Positions 47,826-51,455 of a DNA stretch of 64,000 nt are shown here, in pieces. The position numbers and the translations under genes were made by a program. How positions within the stretch are numbered: position 1 is the first letter of the stretch; every line of letters starts with the position of its first letter. The notes under the pieces are model-generated. The model ran no database searches, was not told the DNA's origin, and saw only the letters and a list, made by a program, of their open reading frames with translations. This stretch comes from Gammaproteobacteria bacterium (lineage in GTDB: Bacteria > Pseudomonadota > Gammaproteobacteria > Natronospirales > JAIVGZ01), in the NCBI GenBank assembly GCA_040882865.1, contig JBBEAN010000015.1:40779-104778 (forward strand), in the 5' to 3' direction.

Positions 47826-47964
47826 TGCCATCTCCAAGTTCACCCCGCTGAATTGCGGCGCTTCTAAACCTTGGATGCTGACCAACGATGATTTGGATTC
47901 AACCGACGTGGTGGATTTCGCGGTCGAGAGATCTAACTCGGTTCCTGAGTGCCAAAATCGACTG

Positions 47965-48686
47965 TCACGTAGGTTCCACCCTTAGCACTACACTGCCTAC
48001 CTTCCGACCTGAGTCAACGCGTCGGTGCGCGGGGACGACATCCGTAAACGGAAGGCGACAATCGATTACCGCCTTCAAATCTCCCGCCGCCGCTCTCGCC
48101 GCCAAATCGCGCAAACAGCGGTAACGACAGCGCCCGCGTGGCTCGCGATTTGTACCATCGCATTCCCCACAGCGCCAGACGCGCCATTAATCAAGACGGA
48201 CTCACCTGCACGAAGTTTCGCCTTCCGCAGAAAATGCAGCGCGGTGGTGCCCCCGAAAGGGAGAGCTGCGGCCTCATCAAATGTTAAGTTCGTTGGAATC
48301 AATGCGACGGCGGAATCTTGGTTGACGCACACGAACTCGACATGCGCGCCCATCTTGCCGCCGGATATTCCGAATACGCGGTCGCCGACCACGAAACCGT
48401 CAACCATAGGCCCTATCGCATCCACGACACCTGCGAACTCGGTACCCAGTACGGTGTTTCTCGGTCGACGGATTCCAAACGCACAGCGCACTATCCAAGT
48501 GAAGCCGAACGGCACTCGCATAGCACGCAATCGCGAGTCGGCGGCGGAAATCGTGGTTGCATACACCTGAACCCGGACTTCGTTATCTTTTGGGTTTGGT
48601 CGCTCGACCTCCTCGATCCGGACAACTTCCGGTGGTCCATACCGGTGGTGGGTGGCCGCCTTCATCATCAAACCTTCTTTCAACAC
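47965..48686 (-). pseudogene. zinc-type (MDR) NAD(P)-dependent oxidoreductase with an internal deletion and frameshift
   Basis: N-terminal ~190 aa are intact (..GASGAVGNAMVQIASHAGAVVTAVC), then nonsense and a stop at 48075. The family's C-terminus LKAVIDCRLPFTDVVPAHRRVDSGRKVGSVVLRVEPT is readable in another frame at 48078-47965. About 100 codons are missing. Confidence 0.7.
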
Positions 48687-48897
48687 TCAGAGGATTTCGA
48701 AGCATACGCGTGTTTCCGACGGACCATATACAGATGATTTCGACGCACCTTCTGATCAACGCGAAGCTCAGCCGTGCTCGCGATATTCATGCTCGGCGAA
48801 GCGCAAATGGCTTGAAGTTTTTGTGGGGATCCCCGCAGCAATCCACACTCGCGATGTGGGGAGCTGCGGAGCGAACTAGGTAACTTATTGATGTAAT

Positions 48898-48916
48898 TGG
48901 CGCGCCCGGAGAGATT
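48898..48916. repeat. 19-nt copy of the tRNA-Arg 3' end (T-loop to CCA)
   Basis: TGGCGCGCCCGGAGAGATT, identical to 49077-49095 and 50283-50301. Confidence 0.8.
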
Positions 48917-48994
48917 ACTCGGCCGCTACGCGGCCTCGCCCTTCGGGCCGCCGCGCTTCGCGCGGCGTTGTCTCGCCGGCTACGCCGGCTCGGC
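48917..48994. mobile_element. hairpin-rich miniature insertion in the T-loop position of a tRNA-Arg fragment
   Basis: ACTCGGCCGCTACGCGGCCTCGCCCTTCGGGCC... with three GC hairpins. tRNA sequence resumes as TCGAACT at 48995-49001. Homologous to 51243-51306. Confidence 0.5.
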
Positions 48995-49013
48995 TCGAAC
49001 TGAGGAGCACGAA

Positions 49014-49454
49014 TCAAACCCTAGGACACACCGTGCAAACGAAAAAGGGCCCCGTTGGGACCCTATTCCGTTTGCTTGGCGCGCCCGGAGAGATTCGAAC
49101 TCCCGACCGCCTGGTTCGTAGGCAGAGAGTGAGATCGTAACTAACTGTTTTTAAAAGCCACGTTCGTGGGGCGCCCATTGCAAATCCCCGCAACGGACTG
49201 CAACAGGCTGCAACGCATCCCCACAAATCCCCCACATCGAAAGTGGTACTGATTACGGGGGGAAGGTCAACGTTAGGATCGTGGAACTCGGTCCGTTCGA
49301 AACGTTCGGGCTTAGTCGGAAGCTGTCGCGAGCGCCACTCGATGGTTGGAGACTCTACAAGTTCGGAAGCGGTGGCGGGAAGTGGCGTCCCAACGGCACT
49401 TCCCGGAAGTATGGATGAGAAAATCAATAATGATAAAAGCCAAGCGCGATTCAT
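49014..49454 (-). CDS. hypothetical small secreted protein; 3' end unreliable
   Basis: ATG 49454 is 7 nt after SD GGAGGG. Signal peptide MNRAWLLSLLIFSSILPGSAVG. After ~69 codons the frame runs through the island arm and the att repeat, so the native C-terminus is probably lost. Confidence 0.35.
   Translation of the reverse strand: MNRAWLLSLLIFSSILPGSAVGTPLPATASELVESPTIEWRSRQLPTKPERFERTEFHDPNVDLPPVISTTFDVGDLWGCVAACCSPLRGFAMGAPRTWLLKTVSYDLTLCLRTRRSGVRISPGAPSKRNRVPTGPFFVCTVCPRV
49042..49063 (-). terminator. rho-independent terminator downstream of the displaced tRNA-Arg 3' half
   Basis: On the minus strand GGGTCCC-AAC-GGGGCCC followed by TTTTT, 14 nt after the CCA end of the 49077-49121 copy. 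Confidence 0.6.
49077..49121. repeat. 45-nt copy of the tRNA-Arg 3' half (anticodon loop to CCA), att site between islets
   Basis: Identical to 50283-50327. Identity ends inside the anticodon loop. Confidence 0.85.
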
Positions 49455-49829
49455 GCGAATCCCTCCATGGTGGGTGGTACTCCGTACGAGCGACCGTATT
49501 TATCCTGTGGCTCCTTAGGGGAAACCATTACCCCACCTGCTGTCAAGGGGAATCGGTCCCAAAGTTTGTCCGTCAACGCACACTACGATCTCTCAACGCG
49601 TCAAAATTTCTCCTTGGAAGACGCGATAGTCGAAAACTCAGCTCTGAAGAATCTGCTCTCTAAAAAATGTAACGCCCGCGGTTGCCGGCAAACGTCGGAA
49701 AATGTGGTTCTATCGCGTTTGACCCAACTCGCTACCTCAACGGTGAGCGTGCAATATGCGCCGCCAATGACTTCATCGCTGGCGCGCGTGAAACGTACGT
49801 CGTGAAAAAGTAGCAGCGTTGCGGGCTGA

Positions 49830-50108
49830 TTAGGCGGCGCGACGAACTTTGAGATCGACGCGAAGCCCGGCCCTACTTGCGATATTCACGAGCGCGTCGA
49901 TACTGAATTTTTCAATTCGACCTCGAAGTAAATCGTTCAACCTAGGCTGAGTAATTCCAAGCGCCTCGGCTTTCGCTTCCTGTGTACCTTTGTTGCGTTC
50001 GACGCTCTTCTGCAATGCAATCATGAGCTCTGCCCGCGCCCGCATATTCGCTGCGTCTTCTTGGGTGTTTTCCAACGCATCCCAGACACTTTTGTGCTTC
50101 CTACCCAT
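49830..50108 (-). CDS. XRE-family HTH protein, HigA/HTH_37-like antitoxin without partner
   Basis: 92 aa: ..SVWDALENTQEDAANMRARAELMIAL..AEALGITQPRLNDLLRGRIEKFSIDALVNIASRAGLRV.. SD GAGG. Confidence 0.75.
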   Translation of the reverse strand: MGRKHKSVWDALENTQEDAANMRARAELMIALQKSVERNKGTQEAKAEALGITQPRLNDLLRGRIEKFSIDALVNIASRAGLRVDLKVRRAA

Positions 50109-50150
50109 ATCGCCTCGTTACCTCAAACATCGAATTCTTGGACGGGACTG

Positions 50151-50170
50151 ATTATATCCAATATGATATA
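50151..50170 (-). promoter_or_regulatory. promoter/operator of the XRE gene
   Basis: Inverted repeat TATATC-CAATAT-GATATA (50153-50170), overlapping a minus-strand TATAAT (50151-50156), ~45 nt upstream of the start codon. Confidence 0.45.
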
Positions 50171-50282
50171 GACGATGCGCGGCCGAGCGCAGATGGCTTG
50201 AAGTTTTTGTGGGGATCCCCGCAGAATCCCCACAGTGTGACGTGGGGACTTGCGGGTGAATTCACGTAACAACTTGATTTAA

Positions 50283-50359
50283 TGGCGCGCCCGGAGAGAT
50301 TCGAACTCCCGACCGCCTGGTTCGTAGCCAGGTACTCTATCCAACTGAGCTACGGGCGC
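50283..50359 (-). tRNA. tRNA-Arg (anticodon ACG)
   Basis: Minus strand GCGCCCGTAGCTCAGTTGGATAGAGTACCTGGCTACGAACCAGGCGGTCGGGAGTTCGAATCTCTCCGGGCGCGCCA. Cloverleaf is readable by eye and CCA is encoded. Confidence 0.95.
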
Positions 50360-50425: not shown

Positions 50426-51190
50426 ATGACCAGACCGATATTGCTCGTTATTTTCGCCGCCTTCGTTGTGGCCTGTGCAACCTCACCGACCGGGCGCAGC
50501 CAGCTGATGCTGGTTTCGGGGTCACAAATGGCGGAAATGGGCGCCGCGGCCTTCGCGCAGATAAAGGAGCAGCAACCGATTTCCCGCGATGCACGCGCCC
50601 GCGCTTACGTCCATTGCGTCACGAACGCGCTCACGGCGGCGATTGCGTCGGAACAGCGGTGGGAAGTCGAGCTGTTCGAGGATGAGTCCGCGAACGCCTT
50701 CGCCCTACCGGGAGGCCACATCGGTGTCCACACTGGCCTGCTCGCCGTCGCGAAGACCGACAGTCAGCTCGCTGCGGTAATCGGTCACGAAATCGCCCAC
50801 GTCGTCGCGCAGCACTCCGCCGCCCAGGTTTCGAACCAGATGGCGACGCAGCTCGGTGTGCAGGCGCTTGCCGGTGCGTCGGGCATGAGCCCGGAGCTCA
50901 TCGGGATGGGTGCAAACCTGTTGCTGGTGATGCCCTACGGTCGCCGCGATGAGTCGGAAGCGGACAGGCTCGGGCTGACTTACATGGCCGAAGCAGGGTT
51001 CGATCCGCGCGATGCTGTCGCGTTGTGGCACAACATGAGCGCACAGGGCGGTTCGCGAAGCGCCGAATTCCTGTCGACGCATCCGTCACCGGAATCACGG
51101 ATCACGGAATTGGAGGCGCGGATGCCGACGGTGTTGCCGCTGTACGAATCGGCGCGCTCGCAGGGGCGGCGGCCAAGCTGCAGCCGGTAA
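50426..51190 (+). CDS. M48-family zinc metallopeptidase lipoprotein
   Basis: Start moved to ATG 50426, because the longer ORF runs antisense through the tRNA. Lipobox FVVAC. HEIAH zinc motif and downstream ESEAD. Confidence 0.85.
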   Translation: MTRPILLVIFAAFVVACATSPTGRSQLMLVSGSQMAEMGAAAFAQIKEQQPISRDARARAYVHCVTNALTAAIASEQRWEVELFEDESANAFALPGGHIGVHTGLLAVAKTDSQLAAVIGHEIAHVVAQHSAAQVSNQMATQLGVQALAGASGMSPELIGMGANLLLVMPYGRRDESEADRLGLTYMAEAGFDPRDAVALWHNMSAQGGSRSAEFLSTHPSPESRITELEARMPTVLPLYESARSQGRRPSCSR

Positions 51191-51193
51191 CCT

Positions 51194-51242
51194 TTCGAAT
51201 CCGGATAGCACTGCGTTCTGAATTGGCGGAGAGGGAGGGATT
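51194..51242. repeat. 49-bp direct repeat, distal copy (30 nt tRNA-Ser downstream flank + last 19 nt of tRNA-Ser)
   Basis: TTCGAATCCGGATAGCACTGCGTTCTGAATTGGCGGAGAGGGAGGGATT, identical to 51334-51382. Confidence 0.85.
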
Positions 51243-51306
51243 ACTCGCCGCCTTCGGCGGCTCGCCCTACGGGCCAGCTTCGCTGTTCACCGGGCTCCGC
51301 CCGGTG
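51243..51306. mobile_element. hairpin-rich miniature insertion in the T-loop position of a tRNA-Ser fragment
   Basis: ACTCGCCGCCTTCGGCGGCTCGCCCTACGGGCC...CGGGCTCCGCCCGGTG. tRNA sequence resumes as TCGAACCC at 51307-51314. Confidence 0.5.
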
Positions 51307-51363
51307 TCGAACCCGCATCTTTTATATCGAGGGTTCGAATCCGGATAGCACTGCGTTCTGAAT

Positions 51364-51455
51364 TGGCGGAGAGGGAGGGATTCGAACCCTCGATAGGGGA
51401 TAAACCCTATACTCCCTTAGCAGGGGAGCGCCTTCGACCACTCGGCCACCTCTCC
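51364..51455 (-). tRNA. tRNA-Ser (anticodon GCU), long variable arm
   Basis: Minus strand GGAGAGGTGGCCGAGTGGTCGAAGGCGCTCCCCTGCTAAGGGAGTATAGGGTTTATCCCCTATCGAGGGTTCGAATCCCTCCCTCTCCGCCA. Confidence 0.95.

What the first reader, a model, noticed from the sequence alone, without database searches (positions are those of the whole stretch)
48898..49001. Hairpin-rich ~78-nt insertion splits the T-loop (GATT^CGAA) of a tRNA-Arg 3' fragment; a homologous insertion sits at the same T-loop position next to tRNA-Ser
Seen in the sequence: 48898-48916 (TGGCGCGCCCGGAGAGATT) equals the last 19 nt of tRNA-Arg, and the tRNA sequence resumes as TCGAACT at 48995-49001. The intervening sequence is ACTCGGCCGCTACGCGGCCTCGCCCTTCGGGCCGCCGCGCTTCGCGCGGCGTTGTCTCGCCGGCTACGCCGGCTCGGC. 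It contains three GC hairpins: GGCCGC-TAC-GCGGCC, GCCGCGC-TTC-GCGCGGC and GCCGGC-TAC-GCCGGC.

At 51243-51306 a shorter relative interrupts a tRNA-Ser 3' fragment at exactly the same point (GGGATT^...^TCGAACCC). That sequence is ACTCGCCGCCTTCGGCGGCTCGCCCTACGGGCCAGCTTCGCTGTTCACCGGGCTCCGCCCGGTG. Both inserts begin ACTCG(G)CCGC..GCGG(C)CTCGCCCTWCGGGCC and both end with a hairpin a few nt from the junction. Neither has a target duplication beyond one ambiguous T. Both functional tRNAs are untouched; only duplicated dead fragments are hit.

Inference: precise, duplication-free insertion 3' of a fixed short motif, with subterminal hairpins, is the known behaviour of HUH/Y1 single-strand transposons (IS200/IS605 and their miniature PATE/REP-like derivatives). 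A miniature element that recognises the universally conserved T-loop sequence is not something I can place in a described family. The alternative is that these are arm remnants of a T-loop-targeting integrase element.
Basis: partly seen in the sequence, partly recalled or inferred. Interest (0 to 1): 0.75.

Follow-up and report, generated by a model that had tools for sequence, protein, structure and literature searches.

The report
tRNA-linked repeats (RtT) behind two tRNAs
The two "insertions in a tRNA T-loop" are members of the tRNA-linked repeat (RtT) class, known behind E. coli tRNA and rRNA genes since 1978 and still without an established function or origin, so this is a known kind of feature in a new organism.

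Summary
A 19-nt copy of the tRNA-Arg 3' end is followed by a 78-nt hairpin-rich core and then TCGAACT. A homologous 64-nt core sits at the same T-loop position in a copy of the tRNA-Ser 3' end.

It does belong to a described class: the tRNA-linked repeats (TLRs), Rfam RtT RF00391, first seen as the 178-bp repeats behind E. coli tyrT. The Arg unit aligns to the full RtT model at 41.9 bits (gathering score 45; E 1e-4 over the window). The Ser unit is weaker (22 bits), but it shares the conserved core and has compensatory stem changes. E. coli tyrT, proK and rrnB units carry the same core.

About 30 copies lie beside tRNAs of a dozen or more kinds, and most others are not near any tRNA.

Flanks favour TT^C with no target duplication, and the stems are almost purely Watson-Crick. 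However, no transposase or integrase lies in the window, and copy number in E. coli changes by unequal crossing-over.

Verdict: new members of a known kind; modest interest.

The parts
48898..48916 (-). Copy of the last 19 nt of tRNA-Arg(acg). It forms the 3' end of the Arg-linked TLR unit.
   Evidence: Identical to 50283-50301. Aligned to the 3' end of the RtT model.
48917..48994 (-). TLR core E1. On the tRNA-sense strand it has four hairpins with GTA/GAA triloops and the conserved GGCCCGAAGGGCGAG...CGAGT.
   Evidence: It shares this core with the E. coli tyrT repeat.
48995..49039 (-). 5' part of the Arg-linked unit: the T-loop half TTCGA plus a pseudo-acceptor strand. GGUGUGUCC pairs with GGGCGCGCC, including three G-U pairs.
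   Evidence: RtT model positions 1-50. Outer stem in the minimum-free-energy fold, -76.1 kcal/mol, z -2.7.
49046..49064 (-). Terminator-like hairpin with a T run, lying between the old tRNA-Arg 3' end and the TLR.
   Evidence: The same order (gene, terminator, TLR) is seen at E. coli proK and rrnB.
49077..49125 (-). Displaced 49-nt 3' fragment of tRNA-Arg, the direct repeat of an integrated island remnant.
   Evidence: 98% identical to 50283-50331 (family D3).
49126..50282 (.). Remnant of an island integrated into tRNA-Arg. It carries an HTH_37 gene at 49830-50108(-) and now separates the tRNA from its TLR.
50283..50359 (-). Intact tRNA-Arg(acg). A promoter-like site lies at 50403-50374.
51194..51242 (-). 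Distal copy of 30 nt of spacer plus the last 19 nt of tRNA-Ser. This is the end of the 1.35-unit array.
   Evidence: 100% identical to 51334-51382 (family D2).
51243..51306 (-). TLR core E2. Its four hairpins have loops GGA, GAA, GTA and GAA on the tRNA-sense strand.
51307..51342 (-). T-loop half (TCGAACCC), a loop, and an inverted copy of the tRNA-Ser T-arm (51325-51342).
   Evidence: pair I1 (18 nt, 100% complementary)..
51343..51363 (-). Rest of the 30-nt spacer that follows the tRNA-Ser 3' end. The other 9 nt of that spacer, 51334-51342, are counted in the preceding part.
51364..51455 (-). Intact tRNA-Ser(gct), downstream of csrA.

Best explanation
Both features are tRNA-linked repeats (TLRs, Rfam RtT).

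Anatomy. Each unit lies downstream of its tRNA gene on the same strand. Read in the tRNA sense, the Ser unit, like most other T-loop-linked units fetched here, contains:
1. a spacer;
2. a stretch that is an inverted copy of the tRNA's own T-arm and acceptor 3' strand;
3. a copy of the T-stem 5' strand plus TTCGA;
4. a 64-78-nt core of perfectly paired GC hairpins;
5. a copy of the last 19 nt of the tRNA.
The Arg unit has all of these except a recognisable inverted T-arm copy; in its place a pseudo-acceptor strand pairs with the end copy.

Shown here:
- The units are homologous to the E. coli tyrT, proK and rrnB repeats.
- They have the defining 19-nt end copy.
- The cores have strictly conserved hairpins with compensatory changes.
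- Arrays of such units gain and lose copies by recombination between their direct repeats.

Inferred:
- The unit is transcribed by read-through from the tRNA promoter.
- It folds so that the 19-nt end copy pairs with the inverted copy into an acceptor/T-stem-like helix.
- It is trimmed like a tRNA into a small stable RNA.
- The core first reached a spare copy of the tRNA 3' region by a precise, duplication-free event at TT^C. The enzyme is unknown.
- At tRNA-Arg, a later island integration pushed the old 3' fragment and its TLR 1.2 kb away from the gene.

The cellular function is not established for any TLR. In most relatives two core loops carry GGA, the CsrA-binding motif. The window's copies have kept only one (Ser unit) or none (Arg unit).
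For: Match to the Rfam RtT model:
- The Arg unit matches at 48898-49039(-) with 41.9 bits over model positions 1-130. E is 2.8e-7 locally and 9.9e-5 over the whole window against 4227 families.
- The Ser unit scores 22 bits, E 0.024.

Same architecture in E. coli:
- The K-12 tyrV 178-bp x3.1 repeat has the same layout and core...GGTTCGA CTCGAGCG...GACCCGAAGGGCGAAGCGCGCAGCGCTGAGT AATCCTTCCCCCACCACCA.

Relatives that pass the curated RtT threshold:
- tRNA-Pro in Enterobacter, 95.9 bits.
- tRNA-Gln in a gammaproteobacterial MAG, 55.3 bits.
- tRNA-Arg(ccg) in an Ectothiorhodospiraceae MAG, 54.8 bits.

Literature and annotation:
- RefSeq annotates 'RtT sRNA' beside tRNA-Pro in E. coli.
- PMC8144298 defines TLRs by 18-19 bp identical to the 3' end of the upstream tRNA or rRNA. 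It counts 22 at ten K-12 loci and states that no function is known.
- The rrnB T1-T2 TLR carries the same core.

Position and structure:
- In 22 units next to an intact tRNA, the core always lies 60-138 nt downstream on the same strand.
- In 127 distinct copies, about 2000 stem pairs are Watson-Crick and about 70 are not.
- Fold energies are -76.1 kcal/mol (z -2.7) for the Arg unit and -57.3 (z -2.0) for the Ser unit.

Copy-number change:
- 2635 of 5426 complete E. coli genomes carry a full unit at proK. The others carry a truncated unit, as expected from deletion between direct repeats.
Against: - Both window units score below Rfam's gathering score of 45.
- In the Arg unit the outer stem is not the one the RtT model expects; cmscan flags non-canonical pairs.
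- No expression data exist for this organism.
- The Arg unit is now cut off from the tRNA promoter by an island remnant and lies behind a terminator-like hairpin, so it may be silent.
- The stems show no excess of G-U pairs on the tRNA-sense strand: 17 positions would be G-U there against 12 on the other strand. This is unusual for a selected RNA structure and fits DNA-level hairpins at least as well.
Confidence: 0.8

Rival explanations
1. The cores are miniature non-autonomous single-strand (HUH/Y1, IS200/IS605- or REP/RAYT-like) transposons. They insert without duplication 3' of a short motif exposed in hairpin loops such as the T-loop. It concerns how the core arrived and is compatible with the units being TLRs.
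For: - Boundaries are precise: 5'-ACTCG...GT-3' restores ATT^CGAA exactly.
- Flanks are conserved in 55 parsed copies: T at -2 in 87%, T or G at -1, C at +1 in 76%.
- The same TT^C junction is seen at four kinds of site: the T-loop; the anticodon loop of tRNA-Ser(UGA) copies in Lysobacterales (TTTT^CAAG); the E. coli 5S-linked unit (GCAGTT^CCCTAC); and intergenic sites.
- Hairpins lie 2-4 nt from both ends.
- Stems are almost purely Watson-Crick with no G-U bias, while the loops are strand-asymmetric.
- Most copies are not near tRNAs.
- At the orthologous tRNA-Ser site a relative (L174, lysC 81% identical) carries a different core type whose first 29 nt are identical to the window's Arg core.
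Against: - No Y1, RAYT or other transposase was found among 40 window ORFs scanned against Pfam, nor among the Pfam assignments of eight called genes around the locus.
- No autonomous element with these ends was found in 120 loci.
- The right flank (+1 C) is also conserved, which is not typical of IS200/IS605.
- No empty/filled pair was obtained for a non-tRNA copy.
- In Thiohalobacterales the core spreads only as a passenger inside an IS5-like MITE with its own terminal repeats and 4-bp duplications.
- The one copy-number polymorphism examined, at E. coli proK, is explained by homologous recombination.
- Simple insertion does not explain the inverted T-arm copy.
Confidence: 0.2
2. The inserts are arm remnants (attL/attR scars) of an island moved by a tyrosine integrase that crosses over in the T-loop.
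For: - The tRNA-Arg locus really does carry integrase-type scars: a 49-nt direct repeat (49077-49125 / 50283-50331) and two related arms (48789-48897 versus 50175-50283, 73% identical).
- The T-loop and the anticodon loop are classic crossover sublocations for such integrases (my own knowledge of Williams 2002, not checked here).
Against: - The same core occurs in E. coli tyrT, proK and rrnB arrays with no island.
- It also occurs in about 100 places with no tRNA.
- Units are 130-180 nt with both junctions present.
- No integrase lies in the window.
- The island arms here lie outside the unit, not inside it.
Confidence: 0.04
3. RNA-mediated origin. A core RNA was joined to a tRNA (or 5S rRNA) cut in an exposed loop. 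The chimera was then reverse-transcribed and recombined back next to the gene. The 18-19-nt end copy would correspond to a 3' tRNA fragment cut in the T-loop.
For: - The hallmark length of 18-19 nt from the mature 3' end holds for tRNAs and 5S rRNA alike.
- The junctions lie in the two nuclease-accessible tRNA loops.
- Loop sequences are constrained on the RNA-sense strand: GGA in 75-77% of the first and third hairpins.
Against: - No reverse transcriptase lies in the window.
- No poly-A or other retro-insertion marks are present.
- Spacers and terminators are duplicated along with the unit.
- Many copies are unrelated to any stable-RNA gene.
- This is pure inference.
Confidence: 0.06

Closest known systems
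tRNA-linked repeats (TLRs) of E. coli, also called RtT RNA (Rfam RF00391): the 178-bp repeats of the tyrT/tyrV operon. Sources: Egan & Landy 1978, Rudd 1999 and Bosl & Kersten 1991, all as cited in PMC8144298.
   Same: - A copy of the last 18-19 nt of the upstream tRNA at the 3' end of the unit.
- Position downstream of the tRNA and co-oriented with it.
- The conserved core ...GGCCCGAAGGGCGAG-hairpin-CGAGT AATCC....
- T-loop halves on both sides of the core.
- An inverted copy of the T-arm upstream of the core at the Ser unit; the Arg unit has a pseudo-acceptor strand there instead.
- Fractional tandem arrays.
   Different: - The host is an uncultured gammaproteobacterium, 64% G+C, whose closest lysC relative in the species-representative genome collection (L173, an uncultured gammaproteobacterial MAG) is 94% identical.
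- The tRNAs are Arg(acg) and Ser(gct).
- Scores are below Rfam's threshold.
- The second and third hairpins are unrelated in sequence to the enterobacterial ones.
- The Arg unit has been separated from its tRNA by an island remnant.
rrA/rrB/rrF: the TLRs between terminators T1 and T2 of E. coli rrnA, rrnB and rrnD (PMC8144298).
   Same: - The same core: GAAC-hairpin-GGCCCGGAGGGTGGC-hairpin.
- Placement behind a first terminator, as in the window's Arg unit.
- The end copy of the stable RNA.
   Different: - These are linked to 5S rRNA, not a tRNA.
- They carry GGA loops and bind Hfq and CsrA in vitro. The window's Arg core has no GGA loop and the Ser core has one.
IS200/IS605-derived miniature elements (PATEs) and REP/RAYT repeats.
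   Same: - Small and hairpin-rich.
- No target duplication.
- Conserved short motif on the left flank.
- Strand-asymmetric.
- Dispersed in many genomes.
   Different: - No associated Y1 gene was found.
- There is no GTAG-type REP head and no REPIN doublets.
- The right flank is also conserved.
- There is an extra tRNA-derived scaffold.
Direct repeats of tRNA 3' ends left by integrase-borne genomic islands.
   Same: A duplicated tRNA 3' segment starting in a loop. A true example, 49 nt long, lies 80 nt away in the same locus.
   Different: The TLR units are 130-180 nt, carry no cargo and no integrase, and recur at rRNA operons.

Membership tests
tRNA-linked repeats (TLR) / RtT | [quoted passage not shown] | tested here: met
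   19/19 for tRNA-Arg (48898-48916 = 50283-50301) and 19/19 for tRNA-Ser (51224-51242 = 51364-51382). Definition taken from PMC8144298.
tRNA-linked repeats (TLR) / RtT | Lies in the same operon, downstream of and co-oriented with that gene. | tested here: met
   The Ser unit starts right after the tRNA. The Arg unit follows the displaced original 3' fragment and a terminator-like hairpin, and a 1.16-kb island remnant now intervenes. The strand and order were tested here; co-transcription is inferred.
tRNA-linked repeats (TLR) / RtT | Sequence and structure match to the Rfam RF00391 model at or above the gathering score (45 bits). | tested here: inconclusive
   Arg unit: 41.9 bits, full-length, E 9.9e-5 window-wide. 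Ser unit: 22 bits, E 0.024 to 0.4. Intermediate relatives at tRNA-Arg(ccg), tRNA-Gln and tRNA-Pro pass with 55-96 bits. This is a curated operating threshold, not the class definition.
tRNA-linked repeats (TLR) / RtT | Shares the conserved core with the E. coli tyrT repeat. | tested here: met
   ACTC-hairpin-(C/T)TCGCCCTTCGGG-hairpin-...-TCGAAC is present in both.
tRNA-linked repeats (TLR) / RtT | Transcribed and processed into a small RNA. | not testable with these tools
   No expression data are available for this MAG.
IS200/IS605 miniature elements / REP-RAYT | A Y1 (HUH) transposase or RAYT gene in the genome that matches the element's ends. | tested here: not met
   None was found among 40 window ORFs scanned against Pfam, nor among the Pfam assignments of eight called genes around the locus. 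The rest of the genome could not be searched.
IS200/IS605 miniature elements / REP-RAYT | Insertion 3' of a fixed tetra- or pentanucleotide, with no target duplication. | tested here: inconclusive
   There is no duplication. The left flank is TT or TTG in most copies, but the 4-mers vary (GATT 18, TTTT 16, TTTG 12...), and +1 C is conserved as well.
IS200/IS605 miniature elements / REP-RAYT | Subterminal hairpins at both ends. | tested here: met
   The first hairpin starts 4 nt from the left end. The last hairpin ends 2-4 nt from the right end.
IS200/IS605 miniature elements / REP-RAYT | Empty and filled sites differing only by the element. | tested here: not met
   The only polymorphism found (E. 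coli proK) is a whole repeat unit lost or gained between direct repeats. Flanks beyond TCGAAC are not the tRNA body.
Integrase att-site scars | A direct repeat of the tRNA 3' part flanking an island that carries, or once carried, an integrase. | tested here: not met
   This holds for the separate 49-nt repeat at 49077-49125, but not for the cores. They have no cargo and no integrase, and the same core occurs at rRNA operons.

The most novel reading that the evidence does not exclude
The TLR core is, or once was, a mobile miniature element. It would insert precisely at TT^C in exposed loops of stable-RNA genes and at other sites across Gammaproteobacteria, moved in trans by an enzyme not yet identified. 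It would also have been kept because its two GGA-loop hairpins make it a ready-made CsrA/RsmA-binding module. That reading would explain at once the origin, and a function, of a repeat class that has been unexplained since 1978.
Probability: 0.2. Interest if true: 0.7.

Novelty: new member of a known kind. Interest (0 to 1): 0.3.

Why it matters
For this window, the finding turns an apparent oddity into an annotation: two TLR/RtT units, one of them stranded by an island.

More broadly, TLRs are among the oldest unexplained repeats in bacterial genomes, and the open literature gives them no function.

The comparison made here shows three things:
- The same core is spread far beyond Enterobacterales and beyond tRNA operons.
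- It always meets its flanks at TT^C.
- Its loops are under strand-specific constraint, with GGA in two of the hairpins.

These points make both the origin question (a mobile element?) and the function question (CsrA/RsmA binding?) directly testable.

Tried and rejected
1. Empty-site test with sister strains failed. The M48 protein is found only in the source assembly GCA_040903365.1. Its nearest homologues in the species-representative genome collection are no more than 58% identical and are not syntenic.
2. lysC synteny gave 80 relatives. Most have tRNA-Ser and tRNA-Arg without any core, but none is close enough for a base-by-base empty site. The closest informative one (L174) has a TLR at tRNA-Ser with a different core.
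3. A covariance model of my own was not built. MAFFT could not align the variable second and third hairpins. Hairpins were scored by script instead.
4. G-U strand-asymmetry test: no signal (17 versus 12).
5. Test of "the core always sits in the loop of an outer hairpin": only weak enrichment. Flank stems of 6 bp or more occur in 9% of copies against 2.4% in shuffled pairings.
6. Search for an autonomous element with these ends: L097 looked promising but is only a decayed copy. The Thiohalobacterales repeat is an IS5-like MITE that carries the core as a passenger.
7. Non-tRNA copies hit no Rfam family at gathering thresholds.
8. The 1991 RtT paper could not be retrieved. The 1978 and 1999 papers were not looked for. 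All three are cited through PMC8144298.
9. A restriction-site-like origin (TT^CGAA) was considered and dropped, because the left junction lacks the CG that ligation would leave.

Full report
**1. The observation**

ARAGORN finds two tRNA genes in the window: tRNA-Arg(acg) at 50283-50359(-) and tRNA-Ser(gct) at 51364-51455(-).

- 48898-48916 repeats the last 19 nt of tRNA-Arg. A 78-nt GC-rich insert follows (48917-48994), then TCGAACT (48995-49001).
- 51224-51242 repeats the last 19 nt of tRNA-Ser. A 64-nt insert follows (51243-51306), then TCGAACCC.

The two inserts align over 55 nt at 75% identity, and their first hairpin is kept by compensatory changes. The shared 15-mer CTCGCCCTWCGGGCC occurs only at these two places in the window.

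Two details were missed.
- The tRNA-Ser duplication is 49 nt long and perfect (51194-51242 = 51334-51382). The locus therefore reads as 1.35 copies of a 140-nt tandem unit.
- The sequence after TCGAAC is not the tRNA body. At the Ser unit it is an 18-nt perfect inverted copy of the tRNA's own T-arm (51325-51342, pair I1).

**2. What it is**

A scan against Rfam placed the Arg-linked feature in RtT RNA (RF00391).
- The match runs over 48898-49039(-), 41.9 bits, and covers the whole 130-position model. E is 2.8e-7 locally and 9.9e-5 for the whole window against all 4227 families.
- The Ser-linked feature matches the same model weakly (22 bits).

RtT is the RNA of the 178-bp repeats behind the E. 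coli tyrT/tyrV genes. I fetched that locus. It has the same anatomy and the same core: 19 nt of tRNA-Tyr 3' end, then ACTCAGCGCTGCGCGCT-TCGCCCTTCGGGTC-hairpin-...-CTCGAG, then TCGAACC.

The literature gives the class its name: tRNA-linked repeats (TLRs). According to PMC8144298:
- there are 22 TLRs at ten loci in E. coli K-12;
- all end with 18-19 bp identical to the 3' end of the upstream tRNA or rRNA;
- the function claimed for RtT in 1991 was later retracted, and the class has "no known function";
- the three 5S-linked members bind Hfq and CsrA in vitro.

The rrnB T1-T2 spacer indeed carries the same core.

**3. How wide the family is**

I scanned one genome per species for ACTCG-N11-15-CTCGCCCTWCGGGCC. 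They are mostly Gammaproteobacteria: Rhodanobacteraceae/Lysobacterales, Enterobacterales, Rheinheimera, Ectothiorhodospiraceae and others.

About 30 copies lie within 400 nt of a tRNA gene. The tRNAs are of many kinds: Arg ccg/acg/tct, Pro, Tyr, Gln, Ser gga/tga/gct, Glu, Gly, Lys, Phe, Leu. Of these 30, 24 are co-oriented with the tRNA.

Units at tRNA-Pro (Enterobacter), tRNA-Gln and tRNA-Arg(ccg) pass Rfam's curated threshold. RefSeq annotates "RtT sRNA" beside tRNA-Pro in E. coli. The window's units are therefore divergent but ordinary members of the class.

The remaining copies, roughly 100, are not near tRNAs and match no Rfam family.

**4. Anatomy of a unit**

In 22 units next to an intact tRNA, the core lies 60-138 nt downstream on the same strand.

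Read in the tRNA sense, most T-loop-linked units fetched here, including the window's Ser unit, run as follows:
1. a spacer, often with a terminator;
2. an inverted copy of the local tRNA's T-arm and acceptor 3' strand;
3. a loop;
4. the T-stem 5' strand plus TTCGA;
5. the core;
6. the 19-nt end copy.

The inverted copy matches the local tRNA better than any other tRNA in 8 of the 22 units. Examples are 22 nt with one mismatch in L247 and 18/18 at the window's Ser unit.

The window's Arg unit has no recognisable inverted T-arm copy. It folds (-76.1 kcal/mol, z -2.7) with a 9-bp acceptor-like outer stem that includes three G-U pairs and closes four hairpins.

**5. The core**

In 127 distinct copies, the three variable hairpins hold about 2000 Watson-Crick pairs and about 70 others, and the stem sequences are highly diverse. 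The hairpins themselves are therefore conserved.

Neither strand shows an excess of G-U (17 against 12).

The loops, however, are strongly strand-specific. On the tRNA-sense strand they are GNA or GNRA-like. GGA is present in the first hairpin in 49 of 65 parsed copies and in the third in 50 of 65, but in the second in only 4 of 65. GGA in hairpin loops is the CsrA-binding motif, which fits the published binding by the 5S-linked TLRs. The window's Arg core has no GGA loop and its Ser core has one.

**6. Junctions**

Taking the intact tRNA as the empty site, the core is 5'-ACTCG...GT-3', inserted at ATT^CGAA with no duplication (the Arg core ends ...GCT).

The same TT^C junction appears in three other settings:
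- in copies of tRNA-Ser(UGA) in Lysobacterales, where the core sits in the anticodon loop (TTTT^CAAG) and tandem units carry the tRNA's 5' half;
- at the E. coli 5S-linked unit (GCAGTT^CCCTAC);
- in intergenic copies, where T is at -2 in 87% and C at +1 in 76% of 55 parsed copies.

At the orthologous tRNA-Ser site, a relative (L174, lysC 81% identical) has a TLR with a different core. Its first 29 nt are identical to the window's Arg core. Cores are therefore exchanged or replaced between sites.

**7. What speaks against a simple HUH element**

- No integrase, transposase, Y1 or RAYT gene was found among 40 window ORFs scanned against Pfam, nor among the precomputed Pfam assignments of eight called genes around the locus. 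The region is housekeeping: mutS, recA, alaS, lysC, csrA, tRNA-Ser, an M48 peptidase and tRNA-Arg.
- Copy-number change, where it can be seen, is homologous. 2635 of 5426 complete E. coli genomes carry a full unit at proK. The others carry a truncated unit that is exactly what deletion between the direct repeats would leave.
- In a Thiohalobacterales MAG the core multiplies only as a passenger inside a roughly 215-bp IS5-like MITE, which has its own terminal inverted repeats and 4-bp duplications.
- Insertion alone does not explain the inverted T-arm copy.

**8. The Arg locus history (inferred)**

The likely order of events is as follows.
- The original arrangement was tRNA-Arg, then a terminator-like hairpin (49064-49046), then the TLR.
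- An island then integrated into the tRNA and regenerated its 3' part. This displaced the old 49-nt fragment (49077-49125), together with the TLR, by 1.2 kb.
- A second, related island arm (48789-48897, 73% identical to 50175-50283) abuts the TLR's 19-nt end copy. That copy may therefore have served as a secondary attachment site.

**9. Verdict**

The thing is a known kind (TLR/RtT) in a new host and at tRNAs Arg(acg) and Ser(gct). The proposed HUH mechanism is neither shown nor excluded. Interest is modest for the window itself. The family-wide regularities noted here (TT^C junctions, GGA loops, wide dispersal) are worth a dedicated study.

Noticed in passing
window 48741-50331: Scars of integrase-type islands at tRNA-Arg. 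There is a 49-nt direct repeat (49077-49125 / 50283-50331) around a 1.16-kb remnant with an HTH_37 (XRE-like) gene at 49830-50108(-). A second related arm (48789-48897, 73% identical to 50175-50283), plus a fragment of the HTH gene's 3' end (48741-48789, 80% to 49840-49888), abuts the TLR's 19-nt pseudo 3' end. That end copy may have acted as a secondary attachment site.
   Followed up: partly
L010, L025, L064, L085, L086 (Lysobacterales/Rhodanobacter), e.g. L064:3160-3600: The same core sits in the anticodon loop of tRNA-Ser(UGA) copies (tRNA sense CTTGA|core|AAACTGCC). In some of them (e.g. L064) it forms tandem units upstream of the working tRNA, each unit carrying the tRNA's complete 5' half. 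This is a mirror-image arrangement to the T-loop-linked units.
   Followed up: partly
L030, L031, L035, L037, L063, L065, L070, L083, L117 (Thiohalobacterales MAG JBGSOE): A MITE of about 215 bp with terminal inverted repeats GGAACCTCTGATTAATT and 4-bp duplications (TTAA/CTAG, IS5-like) carries the TLR core internally. It is present in at least 10 copies. Near-identical elements occur in a second gammaproteobacterial MAG, and more diverged ones in a Desulfobacterales MAG.
   Followed up: partly
family-wide; window 51243-51306: On the tRNA-sense strand, the loops of the first and third core hairpins contain GGA in 75-77% of parsed copies, and both do in 71%. This is the architecture of CsrA/RsmA binding sites. 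The window's Ser-linked unit lies about 300 nt from csrA, but that gene order is conserved in relatives that lack any TLR.
   Followed up: partly
E. coli proK locus (L171, L172): There is a presence/absence polymorphism of a full RtT unit behind tRNA-Pro: 2635 of 5426 complete E. coli genomes have it. The short allele keeps the spacer, the inverted T-arm copy and the first 5 nt of the core.
   Followed up: yes
L253:200-325 (E. coli rrnB T1-T2): The spacer between the rrnB T1 and T2 terminators contains a TLR with this same core, joined to a copy of the 5S rRNA 3' end. From my own memory, not checked here, this is the stretch carried as a terminator cassette in many cloning vectors.
   Followed up: partly
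window 50426-51190: An M48 peptidase gene lies between tRNA-Ser and tRNA-Arg. In most of the 80 relatives with the lysC-csrA-tRNA-Ser-tRNA-Arg order, the two tRNAs are only 30-300 nt apart, so the gene looks like an insertion shared with L174.
   Followed up: no
window 47940-48686: A zinc-type alcohol dehydrogenase gene appears to be split. One call of 202 aa carries ADH_N, and a separate 37-aa call shows a weak ADH_zinc_N_2 match. It lies next to the island arm remnant and is probably a pseudogene.
   Followed up: no
window 51367-51420(+): An Rfam hit to 'Plastid-psbl-rps4 3'UTR' (45 bits, below its threshold of 68) is only the antisense strand of the tRNA-Ser T-arm and variable arm. It is an artefact.
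   Followed up: yes
L066:4727-4801: Xanthomonas sRNA sX9 (RF02228, 48 bits, above threshold) lies immediately after a TLR-like unit behind tRNA-Glu in a Rudaea MAG. Whether sX9 is itself TLR-related is unknown.
   Followed up: no
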